Assembly: GCA_963843925.1 (NCBI GenBank)
Contig: CAWJML010000004.1
Span: 289,123 to 353,122 of the forward strand
DNA: 64,000 nucleotides
Reading direction: 5' to 3'
DNA from: an uncultured Chloroflexia bacterium
GTDB taxonomy: Bacteria > Chloroflexota > Anaerolineae > Anaerolineales > Villigracilaceae
The notes under the pieces are model-generated. The model was not told the DNA's origin. It worked only from the letters and a program-made list of their open reading frames with translations, and made no database searches. A program made the translations under genes and the position numbers. Shown here in pieces: positions 3,660 to 43,384 of the stretch. Within the stretch, counting starts at the first letter, position 1, and every line of letters begins with the position of its first letter.

Positions 3660-5976
3660 TCAGACTTTGCGCAGGAAAGCTACCGCCTTCCTCTGTAAAT
3701 CGTTCATCACCAGCGAGAGGCTGTGACCGGGGCGGAAATCCTGCACTTTTATAACACGTAAAGCCTCCAGTAACGTCGTCTCTGATGGCAGAAATTCTTG
3801 CAGGTGATTGGGGGTCTGATAGAAAAAGTCCCGCTCGAAACTACTATCGCGATCATCCAGGTTGATATTAAGAGGATAAATATGAGCTTCCATTAAATCC
3901 TGGAAGAAATGGGTGCCGAACGATGGCTCCAGATTCCGGGCCGACGCCCTTGCCTGTCAATTCGACCAAGGCACGCGTATGGTATATGTCACCATAAGCA
4001 ATACTGACGCCCAGATCAGGCGTCGAAGTTCCCCACCGGCCGGGTCCAATGCATATAAACGTCTCATCCTTAAACAAAGCGTTCAGTTTCCCAAGCGCAC
4101 GCTCCAATCGGTTGCGAGCAGCTGGTGATATCAGTGAAAAATATCCCTCCGGTGGGACGAAGAGTATCCACTGGATACCGGCTACAGCACCGCGCGGGAC
4201 CATGCGCCGGGTGGTAAAAATGATATCTTCACGGCTGAGGGGATCGGGGAGGTCAACGGTTTCCCCTTCTGCGATCGCACTTTGCGGTCGGCATTGCAAC
4301 AGCGTGATGCATACCTCGGGTCGTAATGATTGCGGGTCCAAGATCTCAGCGGTAAATTCTGTATCCACTGGTGATTCGTAATGCTTTTCAAGGGTGGTCA
4401 GGATGGTCTTCATTCGCGCAGCAAAAGGTGTATGCCTCAAAAGTCCATGAAAGGTGATGACCAGGTTCTTAGCCTCGACCAGGCTGGTGCGGATTGGCTC
4501 GATAAAGCCGCCTTCGTCCGCCTGGCAGATGAAACGCAAACTGGGGTACTGGGGTGTTAGGACCGTGTGGATAGGGAGGGTTTTGAAGGTGTTTTCTTCC
4601 AGATCGATCAGGTCCACGAAATGTTGTGAATGCTGGAGAATGGCCTCGGTAGAATCAGCAGGTTGCAGCAGCGGGTGGCTTAATGCGACCAGTCGCGGCT
4701 GTTCGTTGGCAATCGCGTCCACAGCACGCGTGCCCAGCCCCCACACCAGGCGCAGGAACCCATCCTCTGGTCGAATCTGTGTCGACCACCGGTATAAGTT
4801 CCGGCTAAAAGCAACCCCGGCCGTGTGCGGAAGAAAGTATCTCCCGAATTGTTCCCCTTCGACAAACTGGATCAGCACGGCAATGCGCTCATCGTAATCT
4901 ACCAGCCCCTTTTGGTGGCGGTAGAGCAATGCGTTTGGGTTGAGACAGGATGCATAGACGCGTGCAATCGCCTCAGTGATATTGGTGAGGTTCTCTTCAG
5001 CTGAACCCTGGTTTGGACAAAAATAACTGTTGTACTTTCCGGCGAACGAAGTGCCAAAACTGTCTTCCAAAAGGCTGGACGAACGCACGATCAATGGACG
5101 TCTGCTTGCCTCATCAAGGATTAATCTGAGTCGTTCAAGAATGTCTTTGGGGAAGGTCCCTCCAACAAAATCTTTCACGATCTTTGGATAATCAGCCCGC
5201 ATCGCGGCTTCGTTTTTGTATTTCTGGTCGGACCAATGGATCAAGCCATTGGCTGCCATGAATGCATAATACATATCCGAAGCCAGGAAATATGAAGTGG
5301 GGATCCGGATCATTTTCTGCACTTCGACTGGAGCTTCATCCCTCAGGATCCGGTAACCCAGCATCATCCCGGCAGATTTACCACCGATCTTTCCATACCC
5401 GATTTTACGACTGTATATATCCCGCAGATCATCGATCGTGAACCATTTTCGTGCGATTTTCAGGTAAGCCAGTTGGTCGCTGATCATGGTGCGGATGAGC
5501 ACCACTTTGATTTCCTGCAAGCGTGCTTCCAGGTGCTTTCGACGGGAGACGGGCATCCTTTCAATATCTTCTGCCTGTTCGAAGAGCATATCCTGTGGAG
5601 CCAGTTCCGGGTTGAATGTGATCAGGTCCGGTTCTTTTCCCCGCTCGCTAACCGCTTCCCGTACGATCGCCTCGAAATCCCCATAAGGGAGGTTATTGCC
5701 AAAATAAAAATCAGTCAAATGATCTATCACCCGTCGCTGTCTTTCGTCCCACACTTCCTGGGTTTCCTGGGCGTACGGGTCACCAAGCCCTTCTCGTTTC
5801 TGGCTTTCTATGGCTTTATGGCGTGCCTCCGCCTCGAAATCCGACTTGGCGATCACCCCCCGCGTAAACAATTGGTTACGCATGATCTGGCGGATGCGCG
5901 CGCTCAGAACGGGATATTCGCTTAGTGTCAGGTAGATGCGCAAGACACGATCAGTGGAAGGATTGGGGAGGCTCAT
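3660..5976 (-). CDS. PEP/pyruvate-binding (PPDK_N, ATP-grasp type) domain protein of unknown role; frame broken by a net +1 nt near 3936-3942
   Basis: The motif PLIVRSSSLLEDSFGTSFAGKYNSYF is typical of the PEP-utilising-enzyme nucleotide-binding domain. ORF 3868-5976 ends in the out-of-frame tail GPESGAIVRHPFLPGFNGSSYLSS. The adjacent frame reads NLEPSFGTHFFQDLMEAHIYPLN and continues into ORF 3660-3893. Confidence 0.7.
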
Positions 5977-5985
5977 GGGTTTATT

Positions 5986-7200
5986 TTACGGCTCAGATAA
6001 TCTGGAAGACAGGAACCATCTCTTGAGCAAACTGATCACCAGGCACACACTCAGGATTAAACCACCCCAGGTATTTAATGAATCCAGCACCGGAAAGCCG
6101 TAGACTTTAGCCAAAACCAGGACGATACCGATCCCAAATCCTGCAACCAGAAGCGACGCTACCTTACGGTCAAGAAGGATCAAAACAAGCCAGGCAGATG
6201 GCAGGATCAACCAGACATATGTCGCCACCCACGCTTTCCCCAGGAAGATCAATAAGCCTGTCAAATTGAGGATAAAAACCAATTCACTCGTGATGCCGGT
6301 TTTCCCGAGTGGTATGGCAGGCTGCCGTTCATCCTTGCTGAAACGGCGGCCGATAATCCACACCGTTCCCCCAAGCAGACCCAGTCCGCATAACTCGACC
6401 ACTCGTGACAGGTTCGGATAAGCGGATAGGTATTTGAGAAGTGATTGGTTGAGCCAAAAAGCGTCTCCTTTACCGACCTCGGGTAACACATATCGGATGT
6501 AATCAACAAACCAGCCGAACGGGACGAAGAACATTGAAAATGCTGCCAGCACAACGATACTGACCAGGTACATAACCAGGAACCGCAAGTCGCGCCGAAA
6601 AATGACGTAATAGATCAACAAGAAACCCGGACTGACCTTGATGATGGTTGCCACCGCCAACAGGATTGCTGCCGGTAAACGCTTGTTTCTTGCATATAAC
6701 AGGTAACTTGCCAGGATCAGACAGATAATGAACACATCAACTTGACCGTGCTGGATGTGACTCAATAACGGGAAGGAAACGAGAGTAAAACCAAGTCCAA
6801 GCGCCAGGAAGGTCATTCGCTGCTCAGGCGCGAACGAACGAACCATCCAGAATAATATGGCAATATAACTCAGCCCATAGGCGATCAACCAGGACAGCCT
6901 GGCTTGATCATACGGTAACCGCGCTATCAGGCTGAAAATGGGCAATGTTGGAGGTGGGTAGATGAAATCTGATATTACAGGCTGGTTTTGAGAGTTCGTT
7001 CCCCAAAAATATGGATTGTCCGATCGCAGGAATCGTGCCCCCGCGTTGTAATATGCGAAGAAATCCACGTTGTGGAGGACTCCCGCATCCGTCTGGGTGG
7101 GTTTGTTATAAAAATCCCGGGCTGAGATAAGCCAGTAATTCCAACCGAATACCGTGATCAAGACCAGGATGAGGATTTTAACAGTTACGGATAATTTCAT
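5986..7200 (-). CDS. Polytopic membrane protein, DUF2029/GT87-like glycosyltransferase
   Basis: 404 aa with about 10 or more hydrophobic helices. The N-terminal loop DFFAYYNAGARFLRSDNPY resembles the conserved loop of DUF2029/GT87 mannosyltransferase-like proteins. This is from memory, not searched. Confidence 0.5.
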   Translation of the reverse strand: MKLSVTVKILILVLITVFGWNYWLISARDFYNKPTQTDAGVLHNVDFFAYYNAGARFLRSDNPYFWGTNSQNQPVISDFIYPPPTLPIFSLIARLPYDQARLSWLIAYGLSYIAILFWMVRSFAPEQRMTFLALGLGFTLVSFPLLSHIQHGQVDVFIICLILASYLLYARNKRLPAAILLAVATIIKVSPGFLLIYYVIFRRDLRFLVMYLVSIVVLAAFSMFFVPFGWFVDYIRYVLPEVGKGDAFWLNQSLLKYLSAYPNLSRVVELCGLGLLGGTVWIIGRRFSKDERQPAIPLGKTGITSELVFILNLTGLLIFLGKAWVATYVWLILPSAWLVLILLDRKVASLLVAGFGIGIVLVLAKVYGFPVLDSLNTWGGLILSVCLVISLLKRWFLSSRLSEP

Positions 7201-8398: not shown

Positions 8399-8649
8399 GG
8401 CAATTTCCTCTCCCATCAAAGTATATACCGAGAATCCTAAAGTGGAAAGGCAATTAGTCGATATTGTCATTGGAAAGATGGTTATCTGTGAAATCACCGT
8501 TGGTCTCGTTTCCATCGATCTCGTTTACGCTAGCGTCTTGTTCATTACTAAAAAAAAAGGTCAGGCTGTAAAGATCCAGTGTTTGAATTATTACAATACA
8601 TTCAGGGAAGGAATATAATGATTGCGGGAATAAGAAGAAAGGATCTACT

Positions 8650-9129
8650 ATGACGGAAGAATTGAATGTTGGATCGCCAGCCCCTGATTTCAGGCTGCCT
8701 ACAAATAATGAAAGGCTGGTCAGTTTGTCTGATTATCGCGGTAAAGCAAATGTTGTACTTTTCTTCGTACGGGAATATAACTGATTACAATGTCGCACGC
8801 ATGTCTCCCAGTTGGGGAGGCTTTACAAGGATTTCCAGGCGGCAGGAGCAGATATCCTCGTGATCCTGGGGGGCAACCTCGACCAGGCCCGCAACTATGC
8901 TCGACAGCTCAAGGCGCCCTTCCCGGTGCTGGCTGATCCAGATCGCAGCATCTATCATCTTTTTGATCTTGAGAAAGCGTTCATCCTGATTCAGCGCACA
9001 GCCTCGGTTGTCGTTGACAGGCAGGGCGTGATTCAATACATGAAACACGCTACGAATCCAATGCTGTGGTTGCAGGAAAGTGGTGAATTATTGACATTCG
9101 TGGTTGGTCTCGGACCGACCGCAAAATAG
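8650..9129 (+). CDS. AhpC/TSA (peroxiredoxin/redoxin-like) thioredoxin-fold protein with in-frame TGA at 8782-8784 (candidate Sec, U-L-Q-C)
   Basis: ATG 8650, TGA 8782 and the downstream ORF 8812-9129 are all in the same frame. The two halves read MTEELNVGSPAPDFRLPTNNERLVSLSDYRGKANVVLFFVREYN-[TGA]-LQCRTHVSQLGRLYKDFQAAGADILVILGG...PVLADPDRSIYHLF...VVVDRQGVIQY. Together they form one AhpC/TSA domain. Confidence 0.7.
8803..8821 (+). promoter_or_regulatory. SECIS-like hairpin downstream of the in-frame UGA
   Basis: GUCUCCC (8803-8809) pairs with GGGAGGC (8815-8821): 7 bp including one G-U pair. The apical loop is AGUUG. The hairpin starts 18 nt after the UGA and the loop G is 29 nt from the U of UGA. 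Confidence 0.5.
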
Positions 9130-9217
9130 GAGTGATACCTGGATTGGCCATATGCCGTTGAGTAAAAAGCGCACTTTTTGTGGCCAATTTCAACAGTGAT
9201 GATTATTAAGAGCACTC

Positions 9218-9245
9218 TTGACAATTCAACCGTTCGTCATATAAT
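9218..9245 (+). promoter_or_regulatory. Sigma-70 type promoter TTGACA-N16-TATAAT driving the T-box leader
   Basis: TTGACA at 9218-9223 and TATAAT at 9240-9245, read directly. Confidence 0.65.
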
Positions 9246-9261
9246 CCCGTCCAATATATTG

Positions 9262-9572
9262 AAAGACGTCGATGAGGACGAGTAAGCCTCGTACGGCGGG
9301 TCAGAGAGCAGGCGGTAATTGGTGAAAGTCCTGCCCGCACGATGAAGCTGAATGGACCTCGGAGTCGCAGAGCGAAACGAAAGGAATAGCTCTCGCCGGG
9401 ATGCTCCCGTTATCAGGCTAGGGTATACCCCAGGATTGGGCGTACCTGAAATCGAGTGAGGCTGGCTTTTCCCTGTGCATCACCACAGGGATTTTTAATT
9501 AATTCAGCCTAATTCGGGTGGCACCACGGACTACGCGTTCGTCCCGTTCATCGGACGAACGCGTTTGTATTT
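9262..9572 (+). promoter_or_regulatory. T-box riboswitch leader (candidate Trp specifier UGG) with intrinsic terminator
   Basis: Stem I elements: GAUGAGGACGAGUAAG, AGAGAG and GGUGAAAG. Candidate specifier UGG-A at 9353-9356. T-box sequence AAUUCGGGUGGCACCACGG at 9511-9529. Terminator ACGCGTTCGTCC (9533-9544) pairs with GGACGAACGCGT (9553-9564), followed by TTGTATTT. Confidence 0.85.
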
Positions 9573-9699: not shown

Positions 9700-11076
9700 A
9701 TGTCCGATCAAAATCGTTTTTTACTGAATGAAACCGACCTGCCGAAGAATTGGTACAACATCAATGCCGATAGTCCTGTCCCCCCTGCTCCGGTCTTGAA
9801 TCCGATGACGAAAGAACCGATTACACCTGAGTTCCTCTCGGTGCTCTTCCCCATGGAGATAATCAAGCAGGAAGTCAGCACGGAGCGTTATATCCAGATC
9901 CCTGAAGAGGTGCGCGAGATCTACAAGCTTTACCGTCCCACCCCAATGGTACGCGCCCGCCACCTCGAAAAGATATTAGGAACCCCAGCCCATATTTATT
10001 TTAAGAACGAAACCGTCTCGCCAGTTGGAAGTCATAAACCGAATACAGCCATCCCACAGGCTTTTTATAACAAAGTTGCCGGGACGAAGGCGATGACCAC
10101 CGAAACGGGTGCCGGGCAGTGGGGTACCTCACTGGCAATGGCTTGCAACTACTTCGGGATCGATCTCGAAGTGTATATGGTCAAGGTCTCGTACGAGCAA
10201 AAGCCCTATCGCCGCATCTTCATGCAGACATACGGAGCCCAGGTATTTGCCAGCCCGACTGACCGGACCGAGTTTGGTCGCTCGCTTCTGGCCAAGGACC
10301 CGGAAAACAACGGTTCACTTGGCATCGCCATTTCAGAGGCGGTGGAAGTGGCTGCGAAATCCGGCGGTGCGAAGAAATACAGTCTCGGTTCGGTTTTGAA
10401 CCATGTGCTCATGCACCAGTCGGTGATCGGCGAGGAAGCTCTCAAACAGATGGACATGGCCGGGGAATACCCGGATGTGGTCATCGGCTGCGTGGGTGGT
10501 GGTTCGAACTTCGGTGGCATCGCCTATCCATTCTTGCGCCAGAACCTAAAAGATGGGAAGCATACGCGGCTGGTGGCTGTTGAACCGACCGCCACCCCCT
10601 CTTTGACCAAGGGCGTCTATGCTTTTGACTATGGTGATACGGCTCAGATGGCCCCGATCGTCAAGATGCATACCCTCGGTCATACCTTTATGCCGGCTGG
10701 GATCCATGCAGGTGGTCTCCGCTACCATGGCATGGCTCCCAGTGTATCGGCGCTGTATCACGCCGGTTACATCGAAGCTGTGGCAGTCGGTCAGATCGGA
10801 ACCTTCGATGCCGCCGTTATGTTCACCAAAGCCGAGGGCATCATTCCGGCTCCCGAGTCGGCTCATGCCATCCGCGTAGCGATTGACGAAGCTCTCGACG
10901 CCAAGAAGAAGGGTGAGAAACGCATCATCCTATTCAACCTGTCGGGGCATGGTCATTTCGATATGACTGCTTACCAATCCTACCTGAACGGTGAGCTGGT
11001 GGATTATGAGCACCCTGCTCATGCAATTGAAGAGGCTATCAAGGACCTGCCGAAAGTGGAATATCAGGAAGCCTGA
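9700..11076 (+). CDS. trpB: TrpB2-type tryptophan synthase beta chain (PLP-dependent)
   Basis: 458 aa, long-form TrpB. PLP-lysine context NETVSPVGSHKPNTA. Also GCVGGGSNFGG and the SGHG motif near the C-terminus. RBS AAAGGAG. Confidence 0.85.
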   Translation: MSDQNRFLLNETDLPKNWYNINADSPVPPAPVLNPMTKEPITPEFLSVLFPMEIIKQEVSTERYIQIPEEVREIYKLYRPTPMVRARHLEKILGTPAHIYFKNETVSPVGSHKPNTAIPQAFYNKVAGTKAMTTETGAGQWGTSLAMACNYFGIDLEVYMVKVSYEQKPYRRIFMQTYGAQVFASPTDRTEFGRSLLAKDPENNGSLGIAISEAVEVAAKSGGAKKYSLGSVLNHVLMHQSVIGEEALKQMDMAGEYPDVVIGCVGGGSNFGGIAYPFLRQNLKDGKHTRLVAVEPTATPSLTKGVYAFDYGDTAQMAPIVKMHTLGHTFMPAGIHAGGLRYHGMAPSVSALYHAGYIEAVAVGQIGTFDAAVMFTKAEGIIPAPESAHAIRVAIDEALDAKKKGEKRIILFNLSGHGHFDMTAYQSYLNGELVDYEHPAHAIEEAIKDLPKVEYQEA

Positions 11077-16223: not shown

Positions 16224-18650
16224 ATGTCCATCCCCGACGCAAAGCCCAAAACTAACTCTACCAGTCTGGCTGCATGGATGCCTCTCATGTGGCTCTCACT
16301 GGCTTTTATCGCTGGTATCTGGTTTGACAGTCAGGTGCATATCTCCATCCGGCGCTGGCTGGTATTGGCTGCCTTTTCGGTGGTATTGGCGCTCTTTATC
16401 CGGGTGATCCTGCCGCGTCTGGTGATCTATCAAACTACCGTTTCTTCAACCCGTGCCACGCTGATCCTTTTAGCGTTAACCCTTTTCTTCCTCGGTGCAG
16501 CCCGCTACCAGGTGACTGTTCCTGGTAAGGACCCCTTTCACATAGCCTGGTTTGCCGATCGGGATTTTGATCTGGTTATTACTGGAACGCTGGCTGGTCC
16601 ACCGGATAATCGCGATACGTACACCAATCTACGCCTGGATACCACCCTGGTGGATACCGGTTCAGGCGATCTGCCAGTCCACGGTCTCATTCTGGTGCGC
16701 GTAGATCCCGGAGGATCATGGCATTATGGTGATGTGGTGCGGGTGAGAGGCCAGCTTAAGACCCCTCCCTCGAATGAGACTTTTTCCTACCAGGATTACC
16801 TTTCCCGTCAGGGTATTCTCGCCTACATGCCGTCAGGAAAGATCACCCGCTTGCCGTTTATCGGCGGAAATCCTGCGCTCCGATCGGTGTATGCAATCAA
16901 AGATCGTCTCATATCAATTGTTTATAGGATCTTCCCTGATCCGGAAGCTTCCCTGATAGCCGGAATTCTGCTCGGGGACGATAATGGCATGCCTGCTGAC
17001 CTGCAACAGGCATATAAGAATACCGGTACTGCACACATTATTGCAATTTCCGGGTTCAATATCGCCATTATCGCCGGCTTATTCTTGATCCTCTTCCGTC
17101 GTTTGCTCGGACCGCGCAAAGGCGCCATTGCAGCCATTATTGGAATCATCCTTTACACCGTACTGGTGGGGGCCACCGCATCTGTCCTTCGGGCAGCCAT
17201 CATGGGCACTCTCGCAATATTACGCCAGCCTTTTTGGCAGGCGCCAGAACGGTGTCAATACCCTGGTTGCCACAGCTGGCTTTATGGCGGTTATCGATCC
17301 ACGATCTCTTTGGGATGTCGGATTCCAGTTATCGTTTACCGCCACGCTTGGCTTGATCCTCTATGCAAAATCTCTTCAGGACTGGTTTACCCGCCTTTTG
17401 TCCCGACGTCTCCCTTTGGGAACGGCAGCACGCATCGGCGCACCGGTCGGTGAGTTCGTTCTCTTCACAATGGCTGCCCAGGTAACCACCCTGCCGATCA
17501 TGGCTTATCAGTTCGGTCGAGTTTCTCTTGTCTCCATCCTCGCCAATCCCTTTGTTCTCCCGGCCCAACCCGCTGTGATGGTCCTGGCTGGATTGGCTAC
17601 CTTCCTGGGTTTCTTTTACCTTCCGCTAGGTAAACTTGTTGGTTGGATTGCCTGGCCTTTCGCTGCTTACACCGACCGCGCTGTGGAGTTCTTTAATGGA
17701 TTTCCACATGGCGTTATTGTGCTGGGTGAATTTTCTCTGCTCTTTGTGATCTTGTATTACGTTGTCTTGTATTTATTAACCTTCTCCGGATCGCGGTTGA
17801 GGCAGGTGCTACGACCCGTTTTAGTGCCATCAATATTTATTACTTCGCTGGGCATCCTTGTATTCCTCGTTTGGACGGCGGTTTTTACCCAGCCTGACGG
17901 GAATTTACATCTAACGTTTATGGATGTCGGATCAGCAGATGCGATCCTTATTCAGTCCCCAACCGGAAGGTCGCTCCTGGTCAATGGCGGTTCATCCCCC
18001 TCACAGCTCTCAAGTTCCCTTGGAAGGCGTCTACCACCTTTTGACCGTCGCCTGGATTGGCTCGTCGTTGCCTCCACCGCGGATCAAGAGGTCGCTGCTT
18101 TGCAGCGCATACTGGATCGTTTCCCGGCCAGCAACGTCCTGTGGGCAGGCCCGGTCAGTGCATCGTATTCATCGGAAGACCTCGAGCTCTGGCTTTCAGA
18201 GAATGGTGTCCCGGTCATACCGGCTTACCCTGGTGCTGTCCTGGACCTGGGTAGCGGCGCACGGCTGAAAGTTTCAGATATATCCAGCCGAGGTGCGGTC
18301 TTGTTGGTGGAGTGGAACTCCTTTCGAGCCCTGCTACCGATCGGAATTAATTTTGATACCCTGGATGCATCGGTTAGCGGGCCGAACGCTGGCAGTTCCA
18401 TGGGTCCGGTAACTGCCCTCTTGCTGGCTGATTTCAGGTCTGGCGCAGACAAACCCACCCGAATGGATTGCGACGGCTGCGACCAGAGGTCGCGGTTCTT
18501 TCCGTTGCCGCTGGGGACCCCACCAATCTACCGGCTCAATCGGTACTGGAAAGCCTGAATGCGACTACTCTCCTGCGAACCGACCACAACGGCTGGGTCA
18601 CGATTTCGACCGACGGGTCGGGTTTTTGGGTGGATGTTGAAAAGAAATGA
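16224..18650 (+). CDS. comEC: ComEC/Rec2 DNA internalisation channel with C-terminal metallo-beta-lactamase domain; frame broken at about 17216-17222 and once or twice at about 18432-18469
   Basis: Three ORFs (16224-17453 frame 0, 17128-18558 frame 1, 18468-18650 frame 0) join into one ComEC. Motifs: YKNTGTAHIIAISGFNI, SVLRAAIMGTLAI / YASLFGRRQNGVNTL...WDVGFQLSFTATLGL, the MBL part LTFMDVGSADAILIQSP, and the tail RLRPEVAVLSVAAGD...LLRTDHNGWV. Confidence 0.85.
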
Positions 18651-42025: not shown

Positions 42026-43384
42026 ATGGATATAACTGCTGTAGTCCTCGCCGCTGGTCAGGGTACCCGCATGAATTCGGTCCTGCCAAAGGTGATGCAT
42101 CCGGTCTGTGGCGTTCCGATGATTACCCACGCACTGGATGCAGCCAAATCTGCCAGCACCAAAAAACCCGTGGTCGTCATCGGTCATGGCGCCGATGCCG
42201 TCCGTGATTATCTCGACGGGACAGCCAAATGTGTCACCCAGGATCCCCAGTTGGGTACGGGGCATGCGGTCCAGCAGGCAGAACAGCTTTTGAGCGGCAA
42301 AACGGACCTTGTACTGGTCACTTACGGTGATATGCCGCTCTTGCGTCCGGAAACCCTCAAATCACTGGTCGGAATGCAGAAGAAAAATCCTGGACCGATG
42401 AGCATGTTGACCGTCAATGCTGTAGATCCACGTGGCTTTGGGCGGGTGGTGCGCGGCACGGATGGCAGCGTCAAGGCGATTGTTGAGGAAGCGGCAGCAA
42501 CGAAACGACAACTGTCCATTAATGAATTGAATGTTGGCGCGTACTGTTTTTCTTCGAACTGGTTGTGGGAGGCTCTGCGCCGGATAAAGGTCTCAAAAAA
42601 AGGTGAGTATTACCTCACGGATACGGTGGAGCTGGCAGTGAAAAGCGGTCTGGTAGTTGAGGCACTTGTCGGTGATGACCCGGTCGAAATGATCGGTATA
42701 AATACCCGCCAGCATCTCGCTGAAGCGGAAGAAGCAATGCGGTTTCGTATCAACCGTAAGCATATGCTCGCCGGAGTAACCATCATAAATCCCACAGCAA
42801 CATATATCGAGCAAACAGTAAAGATCGGCCGCGATACGATCATTTGGCCGAACACTTTTCTGCGTGGAAATACCGTCATTGGTGAAGGCTGTATCATCGG
42901 TCCAAACACCATTGCAGATAATTCGGCTATCGGGGATTTCTGTGAGATTCTAGCCGCCGTCATGGAAGGAGCGCTGATCGAAGATAATGTAGGCATCGGG
43001 CCGTTTGCCCGCCTGAGAAAGGGTGCCCACTTGTGTAAGGGAGTCCACATGGGGAATTTTGGCGAAGTCAAAGATTCTACCCTTGGACCTGGCACGAAGA
43101 TGGGGCATTTCTCTTACATCGGCAATGCCACCATCGCTGAAAATGTAAATATCGGCGCCGGAACAGTTACCTGCAACTATGATGGTGTCCATAAGAATCC
43201 GACCGAGATCGGTGAGGGTGCTTTCATCGGTTCTGATACCATGCTGGTGGCGCCGGTGAAGATTGGAGCCCGTGCGCGGACCGGTGCAGGTGCGGTGGTC
43301 ACCAGGGACGTGGACCCTGATACGCTTGTGGTGGGCGTGCCTGCTCACCTAATCAAAAAATCGGAAACGAATAAAAGCCGGTAA
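42026..43384 (+). CDS. glmU: Bifunctional UDP-N-acetylglucosamine pyrophosphorylase / glucosamine-1-phosphate N-acetyltransferase
   Basis: AVVLAAGQGTRMNS..PKVMHPVCG, GTGHAV, YYLTD, and C-terminal hexapeptide repeats with NYDG. Confidence 0.93.
   Translation: MDITAVVLAAGQGTRMNSVLPKVMHPVCGVPMITHALDAAKSASTKKPVVVIGHGADAVRDYLDGTAKCVTQDPQLGTGHAVQQAEQLLSGKTDLVLVTYGDMPLLRPETLKSLVGMQKKNPGPMSMLTVNAVDPRGFGRVVRGTDGSVKAIVEEAAATKRQLSINELNVGAYCFSSNWLWEALRRIKVSKKGEYYLTDTVELAVKSGLVVEALVGDDPVEMIGINTRQHLAEAEEAMRFRINRKHMLAGVTIINPTATYIEQTVKIGRDTIIWPNTFLRGNTVIGEGCIIGPNTIADNSAIGDFCEILAAVMEGALIEDNVGIGPFARLRKGAHLCKGVHMGNFGEVKDSTLGPGTKMGHFSYIGNATIAENVNIGAGTVTCNYDGVHKNPTEIGEGAFIGSDTMLVAPVKIGARARTGAGAVVTRDVDPDTLVVGVPAHLIKKSETNKSR

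What the first reader, a model, noticed from the sequence alone, without database searches (positions are those of the whole stretch)
8650..9129. Candidate selenoprotein: AhpC/TSA-like redoxin with UGA at the first Cys of its CxxC motif and a SECIS-like hairpin
From ATG 8650 to TAG 9127-9129 the frame is interrupted only by TGA 8782-8784. Positions 8650, 8782 and 8812 are all 1 mod 3.

The 44 codons before the TGA (…GSPAPDFRLPTNNERLVSLSDYRGKANVVLFFVREYN) and the 114 after it (LQCRTHVSQLGRLYKDFQAAGADILVILGG…PVLADPD…VVVDRQG) are the two halves of one thioredoxin-fold AhpC/TSA domain. Neither half is a sensible protein alone.

TGA-TTA-CAA-TGT reads U-L-Q-C exactly where this redoxin family carries (W)C-x-x-C. 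That is the typical Sec/Cys interchange position.

A hairpin starts 18 nt after the UGA. GUCUCCC (8803-8809) pairs with GGGAGGC (8815-8821) around an AGUUG loop. This places an unpaired G-U 29-30 nt from the UGA, inside the window described for bacterial SECIS elements.

Every other gene disruption in this window is a frameshift, not a substitution. A random error creating a stop at precisely the catalytic codon is therefore unlikely.

Prx-like and thioredoxin-like Sec proteins are known in bacteria. Sec usage in this lineage, and in this particular subfamily, would still be worth documenting.
Basis: partly seen in the sequence, partly recalled or inferred. Interest (0 to 1): 0.8.

Follow-up and report, generated by a model that had tools for sequence, protein, structure and literature searches.

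The report
Prx-like selenoprotein gene in Anaerolineae
This is almost certainly a real selenoprotein gene: a small peroxiredoxin-fold redox enzyme whose in-frame TGA encodes selenocysteine. The kind is already known, but annotation pipelines routinely cut it into two fragments.

Summary
ATG 8650 to TAG 9129 is one frame broken only by TGA 8782-8784, and the joined product is a complete AhpC/TSA domain.

The TGA is not an error:
- 89 of 92 orthologous loci from genomes and metagenomes carry TGA at this column. Three carry TGC.
- "Trp" homologues in databases are TGA translated under code 4.
- Both halves are under equal purifying selection.
- TGA is an ordinary stop elsewhere in the window.

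The hairpin 8803-8821 is conserved, with an invariant AGUU in the loop and compensatory changes in three stem pairs. Its codon choice cannot be explained by the protein sequence: the core is fully paired in 85% of orthologues, against 5.5% after synonymous randomisation.

Two orthologue-bearing contigs also carry Sec machinery, a tRNA-Sec 1.7 kb away and a selD 3.2 kb away. The window itself has none, so this genome's own machinery is untested.

Sec sits where peroxiredoxins have the Thr of T-x-x-C. The Cys three residues on is at the peroxidatic position, and the triad Arg is kept.

This fits the published "Prx-like thiol:disulfide oxidoreductase" selenoprotein family (PF00578, UxxC). It is a correct call and a new member of a known kind. 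Its main value is in fixing annotation.

The parts
8590..8619 (+). Promoter-like site (ATTACA-18-TATAAT), 30 nt upstream of the start codon, in the dnaN/Prx divergent intergenic region
   Evidence: Consensus scan, 10 of 12 matches. This is a pattern match only; function is inferred.
8639..8643 (+). Shine-Dalgarno-like AAGGA, 6 nt before ATG 8650
   Evidence: Read from the sequence. GAAAGGATCT is conserved in the close relatives L097, L098 and L099.
8650..9129 (+). Complete selenoprotein coding sequence of 159 codons plus stop: Prx-like (AhpC/TSA fold) protein with a U45-L-Q-C48 redox motif
   Evidence: - Translation.
- Pfam AhpC-TSA 1-124/124, E 3.9e-26.
- Against 71 orthologues, pN/pS is 0.27/0.80 upstream and 0.24/0.73 downstream of the TGA.
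- An AlphaFold model of the 69%-identical Cys form has pLDDT 92, and its best PDB neighbours are BCP/PrxQ peroxiredoxins at TM 0.80-0.87.
8782..8784 (+). UGA codon read as selenocysteine (residue 45)
   Evidence: - TGA at this column in 89 of 92 orthologous sites, TGC in 3.
- TGC/TGT in the closest Cys forms L095 and L096.
- The column aligns with the Thr of the Prx T-x-x-C motif.
8791..8793 (+). Cys48 codon (TGT), the invariant partner of Sec in UxxC, at the position of the peroxidatic Cys of peroxiredoxins
   Evidence: Invariant in alignments A1 and A3. Aligned with the peroxidatic Cys of 5enu and of M. tuberculosis AhpE 4x1u.
8803..8821 (+). SECIS-type hairpin: stem 8803-8809 / 8815-8821, apical loop AGUUG 8810-8814. 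The conserved core is 8805-8819 (5 bp plus loop).
   Evidence: - A29, G30, U31 and U32 are invariant in 70 sequences.
- Core pairs are kept in 89-100% of sequences per pair.
- Compensatory changes occur at 25:37 (4 sequences), 26:36 (8) and 24:38 (1).
- The core is fully paired in 85% of orthologues against 5.5% after synonymous-codon randomisation.
8995..8997 (+). Arg116 codon, invariant, aligned with the conserved active-site Arg of peroxiredoxins
   Evidence: Invariant in A1 and A3. Aligned with the Arg of 'PARI-TFVID' in Bcp1 3drn.

Best explanation
Window 8650-9129 is one intact gene for a cytoplasmic, 159-residue peroxiredoxin-fold selenoprotein.

- The ribosome reaches UGA 8782-8784.
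- The hairpin 19-39 nt downstream (8803-8821, apical loop AGUUG) acts as a bacterial SECIS. It recruits SelB.GTP.Sec-tRNA(Sec), so selenocysteine is inserted instead of termination.

The product carries a U45-x-x-C48 centre at the N-terminal cap of helix alpha-1.
- Sec occupies the place of the Thr of the peroxiredoxin T-x-x-Cp motif.
- Cys48 occupies the peroxidatic-Cys place.
- The active-site Arg (R116) is retained.

The most likely chemistry is also inferred. The selenolate attacks a peroxide or a disulfide substrate. The oxidised selenium is captured by Cys48 as an intramolecular selenenylsulfide. This is then re-reduced by a thioredoxin-type reductant.

What is shown is the gene structure, conservation of the TGA, selection on both halves, selection on the RNA hairpin, the fold, and the active-site correspondence.
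For: (1) One frame and a full AhpC-TSA domain across the TGA.

(2) The TGA is conserved.
- All six Anaerolineae/Chloroflexia MAG orthologues have it.
- 76 of the 80 best metagenome loci have it; overall 89 TGA against 3 TGC.
- Public protein sets show the typical split: 110-114-aa ORFs starting right after the TGA, and 44-aa N-terminal ORFs.

(3) The 'Trp' homologues P0004, P0005 and P0007 are TGA in the DNA.

(4) Cys homologues sit at the same column: L085, L087, L089, L095, L096, L007 and L008.

(5) Purifying selection is equal on both sides of the TGA.

(6) TGA ends 16 of 47 long ORFs in the window, so the genetic code is standard.

(7) The hairpin is selected at the RNA level.
- The loop has invariant AGUU, and three pairs show compensatory changes arising in several sub-lineages.
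- Gln is CAG in 67 of 67 sequences here, against 34 of 67 at the Gln three codons after the TGA.
- Leu is TTG/TTA in 67 of 67, against 30% family usage. Gly is GGG in 53 of 67, against 20%.
- The core is fully paired in 85% of sequences, against 5.5% after synonymous randomisation. Mean MFE is -11.9 against -7.8 kcal/mol.
- Distant Cys forms lack the hairpin. The closest Cys forms have it with one mismatch.

(8) Sec machinery is on the same contig as an orthologue in two cases.
- tRNA-Sec in L090: ARAGORN, and Rfam RF01852 at 70.8 bits.
- SelD in L058: TIGR00476 at 266 bits.

(9) Literature.
- A. thermophila encodes SelB, and Anaerolineales SAGs have a Sec formate dehydrogenase (PMC4959059).
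- Prx-like UxxC selenoproteins are an established predicted family (PMC1088965, PMC13188914).

(10) Active-site correspondence and fold.
Against: - No tRNA-Sec, selA, selB or selD lies in the 64-kb window, and the rest of this genome could not be read. Sec decoding in this very organism is therefore inferred from relatives.
- The window hairpin alone has only z = -1.82.
- The two outer stem pairs (22:40 and 23:39) hold in only about 55% of orthologues.
- The closest Cys forms and L085 still keep most of the hairpin, so part of it is favoured by the conserved V-A/S-Q-L-G-R peptide.
- By my recollection, the loop G-U lies about 7 nt further from the UGA than in E. coli fdhF.
- bSECISearch itself was not run.
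- There are no experimental data on selenium incorporation, substrate or reductant.
Confidence: 0.9

Rival explanations
1. The gene is a pseudogene, or the TGA is an assembly or sequencing error: a nonsense substitution of TGC/TGT/TGG in a Cys- or Trp-containing redoxin.
For: The window does contain broken genes: ComEC and the PPDK_N gene are frameshifted. TGA is one substitution away from TGC, TGT or TGG.
Against: - The same TGA is present in 89 of 92 orthologous sites from independent samples, sequencing technologies and lineages. These include same-species and same-genus assemblies L015, L097, L098 and L099.
- Both halves stay under purifying selection at saturated synonymous divergence.
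- The other breaks in the window are indels, not substitutions.
Confidence: 0.01
2. The locus is a split gene. Translation stops at UGA, releasing a 44-residue peptide, and restarts at the adjacent codon (UGA-AUG coupling). This would give a separate 114-residue C-terminal protein.
For: In about 80% of orthologues the codon after TGA is ATG, so the stop and a start are adjacent. Gene callers annotate exactly such ORFs.
Against: - In the window and in L015, L097 and L098 the next codon is TTA. Elsewhere it is ATA, ATT, GCA, CTC or CTG, and most of these are not start codons.
- Cys forms have a hydrophobic residue (A, M, F, W or I) at that position within one polypeptide.
- A split would cut the fold between beta-strand 34-40 and helix 46-57 and would delete the nucleophile.
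- Reinitiation does not explain the selection on the downstream hairpin.
Confidence: 0.03
3. The UGA is read through without selenium. Either the genetic code is reassigned (UGA = Trp or Gly), or a near-cognate tRNA inserts Cys or Trp, with the hairpin only slowing the ribosome.
For: - Some public gene calls translate the codon as Trp.
- No Sec machinery was seen for this genome.
- Hairpins after stop codons can promote read-through in general (my own knowledge).
Against: - TGA terminates 16 of 47 long ORFs in the window, including trpB-like and dnaG, so there is no reassignment.
- The Trp calls are code-4 artefacts on short contigs.
- The column interchanges only with Cys, at a redox-motif position, which is the signature of Sec.
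- tRNA-Sec and SelD occur beside orthologues.
- The loop G-U is invariant, as expected for a SelB contact rather than a mere roadblock.
Confidence: 0.05

Closest known systems
Prx-like thiol:disulfide oxidoreductase selenoproteins ('Prx-like protein' / 'Prx-like 1'; PF00578 with UxxC; prototype Geobacter sulfurreducens WP_010940744.1)
   Same: - Same Pfam domain (PF00578) and same U-x-x-C motif.
[quoted passage not shown] See also PMC2398784, PMC9312934 and PMC13188914.
- Here Sec aligns with the Prx Thr, and Cys48 with the peroxidatic Cys.
- Cys homologues exist, and a SECIS-type hairpin follows the UGA.
   Different: - Direct sequence comparison with the Geobacter or marine prototypes could not be made.
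- This clade has its own signature: F-F-V-R-E-Y/F-x-U-x-Q-C-R-x-H and Q-R-T-A-S.
- It comes from Anaerolineae and related uncultured Chloroflexota.
- No NCBIfam model reaches its cutoff for this protein.
Sec-containing peroxiredoxin PrxU (TxxU; NCBIfam NF040737)
   Same: AhpC/TSA fold, selenocysteine in the active-site turn, and the conserved Arg.
   Different: In PrxU, Sec replaces the peroxidatic Cys (T-x-x-U). Here Sec replaces the Thr and the Cys is kept (U-x-x-C). The NF040737 score is 35 bits against a cutoff of 270.
BCP/PrxQ-type and AhpE peroxiredoxins (PDB 3drn, 5enu, 3hjp, 4x1u)
   Same: - They are the best sequence matches in PDB (E 3e-13 to 1e-10).
- They are also the best structural matches to the model of the Cys form (TM 0.80-0.87).
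- The Cys48 and Arg116 equivalents are conserved.
   Different: They have Thr, not Sec or Cys, three residues before the peroxidatic Cys. Sequence identity is only 18-25%.
SelL / SelL-related redox proteins (NCBIfam NF040769; Prx-like family with UxxU/CxxC)
   Same: This is the best NCBIfam match (E 1.6e-21). It is a Prx-like fold with a Trx-like dithiol/diselenol motif at the same place.
   Different: The score of 76.7 bits is below the family cutoff of 120. This protein has a single Sec and no second one.
ResA/TlpA thiol-disulfide oxidoreductases
   Same: C-x-x-C at the N-cap of helix alpha-1, and detectable sequence similarity (E about 1e-9).
   Different: - Structural similarity is weaker (TM about 0.70).
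- The NF002854 score is 43 bits against a cutoff of 170.
- ResA and TlpA are membrane-anchored and extracytoplasmic. This protein has no signal peptide or anchor (read from the sequence).
Bacterial SECIS element (E. coli fdhF paradigm; bSECIS consensus)
   Same: A stem-loop inside the coding region just 3' of the UGA, with a small apical loop carrying a conserved G (here G-U). [quoted passage not shown]
   Different: - The sequence is lineage-specific (CCC-AGUUG-GGG).
- By my recollection, the loop lies somewhat further from the UGA than in fdhF.
- There is no Rfam model for bacterial SECIS, and no Rfam family reached its gathering score at this site.

Membership tests
Bacterial selenoprotein gene (Sec-UGA + SECIS) | In-frame UGA conserved among orthologues, with coding conservation on both sides | tested here: met
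   89 of 92 sites are TGA. pN/pS is 0.27/0.80 upstream and 0.24/0.73 downstream.
Bacterial selenoprotein gene (Sec-UGA + SECIS) | Cys-containing homologues aligned at the UGA column | tested here: met
   TGC or TGT in L085, L087, L089, L095, L096, L007 and L008. Cys in P0001-3, P0006, P0008, P0011, P0016 and P0017.
Bacterial selenoprotein gene (Sec-UGA + SECIS) | [quoted passage not shown] | tested here: met
   - Conserved 5-7 bp stem and an AGUUG loop.
- Compensatory changes in 3 pairs.
- 85% fully paired against 5.5% after synonymous randomisation.
- The bSECISearch program itself was not available.
Bacterial selenoprotein gene (Sec-UGA + SECIS) | tRNA-Sec, SelA, SelB and SelD present in the same genome | not testable with these tools
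   - None is in the 64-kb window, and the rest of the genome is not retrievable.
- Indirect support: tRNA-Sec lies 1.7 kb from the orthologue in L090, and SelD lies 3.2 kb from the orthologue in L058.
- SelB is reported in Anaerolinea thermophila and in Anaerolineales SAGs (PMC4959059).
Bacterial selenoprotein gene (Sec-UGA + SECIS) | Selenium actually incorporated at the UGA position | not testable with these tools
   This needs 75Se labelling or mass spectrometry.
Prx-like thiol:disulfide oxidoreductase selenoprotein family (PF00578, UxxC/UxxU) | AhpC-TSA (PF00578) domain | tested here: met
   91.8 bits against a cutoff of 26, covering profile positions 1-124 of 124.
Prx-like thiol:disulfide oxidoreductase selenoprotein family (PF00578, UxxC/UxxU) | Trx-like U-x-x-C motif in place of the Prx T-x-x-C(U) motif | tested here: met
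   U45-L-Q-C48. U aligns with Thr and C48 with the peroxidatic Cys of 5enu and 4x1u. The motif sits at the N-cap of helix 46-57 in the model.
Prx-like thiol:disulfide oxidoreductase selenoprotein family (PF00578, UxxC/UxxU) | Closer homology to the described prototypes (e.g. WP_010940744.1) than to other Prx-like subfamilies | not tested
   The prototype sequences could not be fetched with these tools.
Canonical peroxiredoxin, including PrxU | Catalytic triad Thr/Ser - peroxidatic Cys/Sec - Arg | tested here: not met
   Thr is replaced by Sec, although the Cys and Arg positions are kept. NCBIfam scores are PrxU 35 vs 270, BCP 32.5 vs 140 and AhpC 26 vs 272.
SelL-related redox protein (NF040769) | Score at or above the curated cutoff | tested here: not met
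   76.7 bits against a cutoff of 120.
ResA/TlpA thiol-disulfide oxidoreductase | Family HMM cutoff and extracytoplasmic anchoring | tested here: not met
   43.4 bits against a cutoff of 170. The N-terminus MTEELNVGSPAPDF has no hydrophobic segment.

The most novel reading that the evidence does not exclude
This may be a distinct, so far undescribed Anaerolineae-wide subfamily of Prx-like selenoproteins.
- Signature: U-x-Q-C-R-x-H ... Q-R-T-A-S.
- Sec would be the ancestral and overwhelmingly dominant state, about 97% of sampled orthologues.
- The SECIS would be lineage-specific (CCC-AGUUG-GGG).
- Occasional recent Sec-to-Cys reversions would leave decaying hairpin relics (L095, L096, L085).
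- The active site would be a hybrid: Sec in the Thr slot of an otherwise intact Prx centre, with the peroxidatic Cys and the Arg retained. This could give a catalytic cycle different from both Prx and Trx.
Probability: 0.35. Interest if true: 0.45.

Novelty: new member of a known kind. Interest (0 to 1): 0.3.

Why it matters
The main value is practical. Public gene calls for this gene are wrong almost everywhere.
- NCBI, ENA, JGI and Logan records show a 44-residue stub plus a 91-114-residue truncated "peroxiredoxin". Alternatively they show a full-length protein with a false Trp from code-4 calling.
- A correct model (TGA = Sec, CDS 8650-9129) restores a complete redox enzyme.
- The gene also marks this genome and a large set of Anaerolineae as Sec users.

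Scientifically, the family offers a very clean natural data set for bacterial SECIS rules outside Proteobacteria and Firmicutes. It has about 70 diverged sequences, an invariant loop, compensatory stem changes, and Cys revertants with decaying hairpins.

It is also a tractable case of Sec placed in the Thr slot of a peroxiredoxin active site. It does not change what is known about Sec decoding or about selenoprotein families.

Tried and rejected
- **Trp at the column.** This was rejected. The DNA of P0004, P0005 and P0007 has TGA.
- **Sec machinery in the window.**
  - The window holds only tRNA-Gln and a T-box.
  - Ten ORFs of SelA, SelB or SelD size turned out to be GyrB, DnaG, GlmU-like, ADI, solute-binding proteins and others.
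It did find L058, which was then verified with NCBIfam.
- **Retrieving the window's own contig.** The aim was to reach the rest of the genome. The proteins are in the collection (498,200-bp contig), but positional look-ups returned nothing.
- **Other selenoprotein genes in the window.** Of 62 TGA sites with open frames on both sides, only 8782 looks like a gene. A second exact CCCAGTTGGG at 42246 lies inside an uninterrupted GlmU-like ORF and is within chance expectation.
- **A conserved operon partner.** Synteny (dnaN - Prx - T-box/trpB-like - gyrB) holds only in the closest relatives. L090 and L058 have different neighbours.
- **Structure prediction of the window protein itself.** The 69%-identical Cys form P0001 was modelled instead.
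- **DNA of the Cys homologue P0006.** It was not available.
- **A covariance-model search.** I judged this uninformative, because the model would mostly encode the coding conservation.
- **A SelD homology search of the 5.8-billion-protein set.** I did not run this, because a hit could not be tied to this genome.
Full report
**1. The observation**

Reading 8400-9300 and translating 8650-9129 confirms every coordinate in the finding.
- ATG 8650 is preceded by AAGGA at 8639-8643.
- The frame has a single interruption, TGA 8782-8784, and ends at TAG 9127-9129.
- There are 44 codons before the TGA and 114 after it. TGA-TTA-CAA-TGT reads U-L-Q-C.
- GUCUCCC (8803-8809) pairs perfectly with GGGAGGC (8815-8821) around AGUUG.

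With Cys substituted for the stop, the product matches Pfam AhpC-TSA over the entire profile (positions 1-124 of 124, E 3.9e-26). It also matches Redoxin and AhpC-TSA_2. Neither half is a domain on its own.

**2. Whether the TGA is real and conserved**

A homology search gave a bimodal picture.
- Full-length proteins of 153-174 residues.
- A much larger set of 105-114-residue proteins that begin "MQC...", exactly one codon after the TGA column.
- Full-length proteins have either Cys or "Trp" at the column.

I fetched the DNA of three "Trp" forms. All have TGA, and the gene callers had used a code in which TGA is Trp.

A scan of GTDB species representatives found six Anaerolineae/Chloroflexia MAG orthologues. 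All have TGA at this column. Two Fimbriimonadales homologues have Cys, as C-H-T-C.

A metagenome scan returned 80 loci. Counting all held loci, the column is TGA 89 times and TGC 3 times.

The closest relatives also keep the TGA.
- They are L015, L097, L098 and L099, with 90-97% identity for this protein and 95-100% for its neighbours.
- They have the same dnaN - Prx - T-box/trpB-like - gyrB order and come from independent ENA and JGI samples.

The window's own record in the public collection has the 44-residue N-terminal stub called as a separate ORF.

**3. Whether both halves are translated, and in which genetic code**

Against 71 diverged orthologues, synonymous sites are saturated while non-synonymous differences stay low on both sides.
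- Upstream of the TGA: pS 0.80, pN 0.27.
- Downstream of the TGA: pS 0.73, pN 0.24.

So the 44 upstream codons are maintained as coding sequence in frame with the rest.

TGA ends 16 of 47 long ORFs in the window, including the trpB-like gene and dnaG. The organism therefore uses the standard code.

**4. The hairpin**

I aligned 70 distinct TGA-bearing sequences, taking 63 nt from the TGA with no gaps.
- Loop bases A29, G30, U31 and U32 are invariant.
- The five core pairs (columns 24-28 with 34-38, window 8805-8809 with 8815-8819) form in 89-100% of sequences per pair.
- Compensatory double changes occur at three pairs:
  - 25:37 changes between G-C and U-A in 4 sequences. The window lineage and L065 changed independently.
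  - 26:36 changes from C-G to G-C or G-U in 8 sequences from at least three sub-lineages.
  - 24:38 changes in 1 sequence.
- The two outer pairs, present in the window, hold in only about 55% of sequences. Many sequences ("CGC AUG" types) seem to use another register there.

Observed pairing exceeds all slid-register controls and all 500 shuffles for percentage of cells paired, cells changed on both sides, and covariation score. It does not do so for the two counts of pairs and pair types (111 and 33 of 500 shuffles reach them).

The decisive control is codon usage.
- The Gln codon in the loop is CAG in 67 of 67 sequences. The Gln codon three codons after the TGA is CAA 33 and CAG 34.
- The Leu codon is TTG or TTA in 67 of 67, against 30% family usage.
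- The Gly codon is GGG in 53 of 67, against 20%. The GGC cases coincide with G at the partner column.
- Keeping every protein sequence but redrawing synonymous codons from family usage gives a fully paired core in 5.5% of cases, against 85% observed. Mean MFE is -7.8 against -11.9 kcal/mol.

Cys forms behave as expected for a SECIS.
- The distant ones (L087, L089, L007, L008) have no hairpin.
- The closest ones (L095, L096) have it with one mismatch (-8.7 and -8.2 against -12.0 kcal/mol).
- L085 keeps 6 bp but has an AAUUG loop. This looks like a relic after Sec-to-Cys conversion.

In 837 kb of held DNA, I scanned for the combination of TGA, open frames, a GC-rich stem of at least 5 bp and an AGUUG-like loop. 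It occurs 79 times, always at this gene.

**5. Sec machinery**

The window holds only tRNA-Gln and a T-box. It has no selA, selB or selD. The rest of the genome could not be reached.

Two orthologue-bearing contigs do carry machinery.
- L090 has a tRNA-Sec (anticodon UCA; Rfam RF01852 at 70.8 bits against a gathering score of 47) 1.7 kb downstream of its TGA gene.
- L058 has selD (TIGR00476 at 266 bits against a cutoff of 125; cut by the contig end) 3.2 kb from its TGA gene.

The literature agrees.
- A SelB gene is reported in Anaerolinea thermophila UNI-1, and Sec-type formate dehydrogenases in Anaerolineales single-cell genomes (PMC4959059).
- Selenoproteins in Chloroflexi were reported in 2006 (PMC1794560).
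- Dehalococcoidia genomes with 46-49 selenoproteins are listed in BSepDB (PMC13326102).

**6. What the protein is**

PDB sequence matches are BCP/PrxQ and AhpE peroxiredoxins, then ResA. In those alignments:
- Sec45 falls on the Thr of the T-x-x-C motif.
- Cys48 falls on the peroxidatic Cys.
- Arg116, in the invariant Q-R-T-A-S, falls on the conserved active-site Arg.

I modelled the 69%-identical Cys form P0001 with AlphaFold.
- The model is confident (pLDDT 92.1, pTM 0.88).
- Residue 45 sits at the end of the loop after strand 34-40, and residue 48 in the first turn of helix 46-57. This is the classic CxxC geometry.
- Foldseek ranks BCP/PrxQ structures first (TM 0.80-0.87). ResA follows at about 0.70.

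NCBIfam's best hit is the SelL-related redox protein family, below its cutoff (76.7 against 120). PrxU, BCP, AhpC and ResA are far below theirs.

The N-terminus has no signal peptide or membrane anchor, so the protein is cytoplasmic.

The gene looks monocistronic.
- It has a promoter-like site at 8590-8619.
- It is divergent from dnaN.
- The next gene has its own perfect promoter (9218-9245) and a T-box.

**7. Mechanism**

Shown here: gene structure, conservation, RNA-level selection, fold, and active-site correspondence.

Inferred:
- SelB.GTP.Sec-tRNA(Sec) binds the AGUUG-capped hairpin while the ribosome sits at the UGA, and Sec is inserted.
- The Sec45 selenolate attacks a peroxide or disulfide substrate.
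- Cys48 resolves the oxidised selenium into a selenenylsulfide.
- A thioredoxin-type system recycles it.

Which substrate is used, and whether Sec45 or Cys48 reacts first, is open.

**8. Rivals**

- Pseudogene or sequencing error: excluded by recurrence of the TGA and by selection on both halves.
- Split gene with UGA-AUG reinitiation.
  - This is attractive because ATG follows the TGA in about 80% of orthologues.
  - The window has TTA, and others have ATA, ATT, GCA or CTC.
  - The cut would remove the nucleophile and bisect the fold.
  - It would not explain the hairpin selection.
- Recoding to Trp or Gly, or selenium-independent read-through.
  - TGA is a normal stop in this window.
  - The column alternates only with Cys.
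  - Sec machinery sits beside orthologues.

**9. Comparison with what is known**

The anatomy is that of the "Prx-like protein" selenoprotein family, also called "Prx-like 1" or "Prx-like thiol:disulfide oxidoreductase".
- It is defined in the field by PF00578 plus a UxxC/UxxU motif.

Both defining features were tested and met. Direct comparison with the prototype sequences was not possible. The protein is not a canonical Prx or PrxU, not a SelL-related family member by score, and not ResA/TlpA.

**10. Verdict**

The gene is a genuine selenoprotein gene of a known kind, in a phylum already known to use Sec.

What is worth recording:
- The near-universal mis-annotation of this clade.
- The unusually clean comparative evidence for its SECIS.
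- The fact that Sec, not Cys, is the dominant state (about 97% of sampled orthologues).

Interest is 0.3. Novelty is a new member of a known kind.

Noticed in passing
window 9218-9549 and 9700-11076: A T-box leader (Rfam RF00230, 105 bits) lies directly behind a perfect TTGACA-16-TATAAT promoter (9218-9245). It has terminator-like hairpins at 9470-9491 and 9533-9564. It precedes a TrpB-like PALP gene, presumably regulated by tRNA-Trp.
   Followed up: partly
window 16224-18647 (+) and 3663-5976 (-): Two genes are broken by indel-type frame changes relative to intact orthologues in L098. ComEC (807 aa in L098) changes frame near 17221 and 18440. The PPDK_N-domain gene (771 aa in L098) changes frame near 3940. 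This is typical of long-read assembly errors, or of real pseudogenes. dnaN is intact (8416-7271).
   Followed up: partly
L090 12143-12235 and L058 9424-10218: Sec machinery genes sit close to the Prx-like selenoprotein gene in two unrelated contigs: tRNA-Sec 1.7 kb downstream in L090, and selD 3.2 kb away in L058. Elsewhere there is no such linkage, so this may be coincidence rather than an operon.
   Followed up: partly
L009 about 10001-10183: A deltaproteobacterial MAG contig carries a classical Sec-peroxiredoxin (…DFTFV-TGA-PTE…, a TxxU motif). A second stop or frame break follows shortly after.
   Followed up: no
L052, TGA at 6090 and at 10124: There are two paralogous copies of the TGA-containing Prx-like gene on one 14-kb contig. 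The copy at 6090 has a C-to-U change in the stem (CCU AGUUG GGG) and a diverged downstream sequence.
   Followed up: no
proteins P0004, P0005, P0007, P0009, P0010, P0014, P0022, P0027, P0031 (loci L010-L014): Public gene calls on short contigs translate the Sec codon as Trp, apparently by genetic-code-4 calling. This produces full-length but wrong 'WxxC' proteins that could mislead alignments. DNA was checked for P0004, P0005 and P0007.
   Followed up: yes
protein P0018: One full-length homologue has Tyr at the Sec/Cys column (…FVREFTYRECRAH…). It could be a TAT/TAC mutant, an inactive form or an error. Its DNA was not fetched.
   Followed up: no
L085 10130-10192; L095; L096: Cys-encoding homologues still carry most of the hairpin: 6 bp with an AAUUG loop in L085, and one mismatch each in L095 and L096. 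This looks like decaying SECIS relics after Sec-to-Cys conversion.
   Followed up: partly
L090 18396-20378 (-): A radical SAM protein is interrupted by an intein with a LAGLIDADG homing-endonuclease domain.
   Followed up: no
window 42246-42255: A second exact copy of the hairpin-top sequence CCCAGTTGGG lies inside an uninterrupted GlmU-like ORF (42026-43384). No TGA is associated with it, and the count is within chance expectation (7 matches with up to 1 mismatch, against 5.2 expected).
   Followed up: yes
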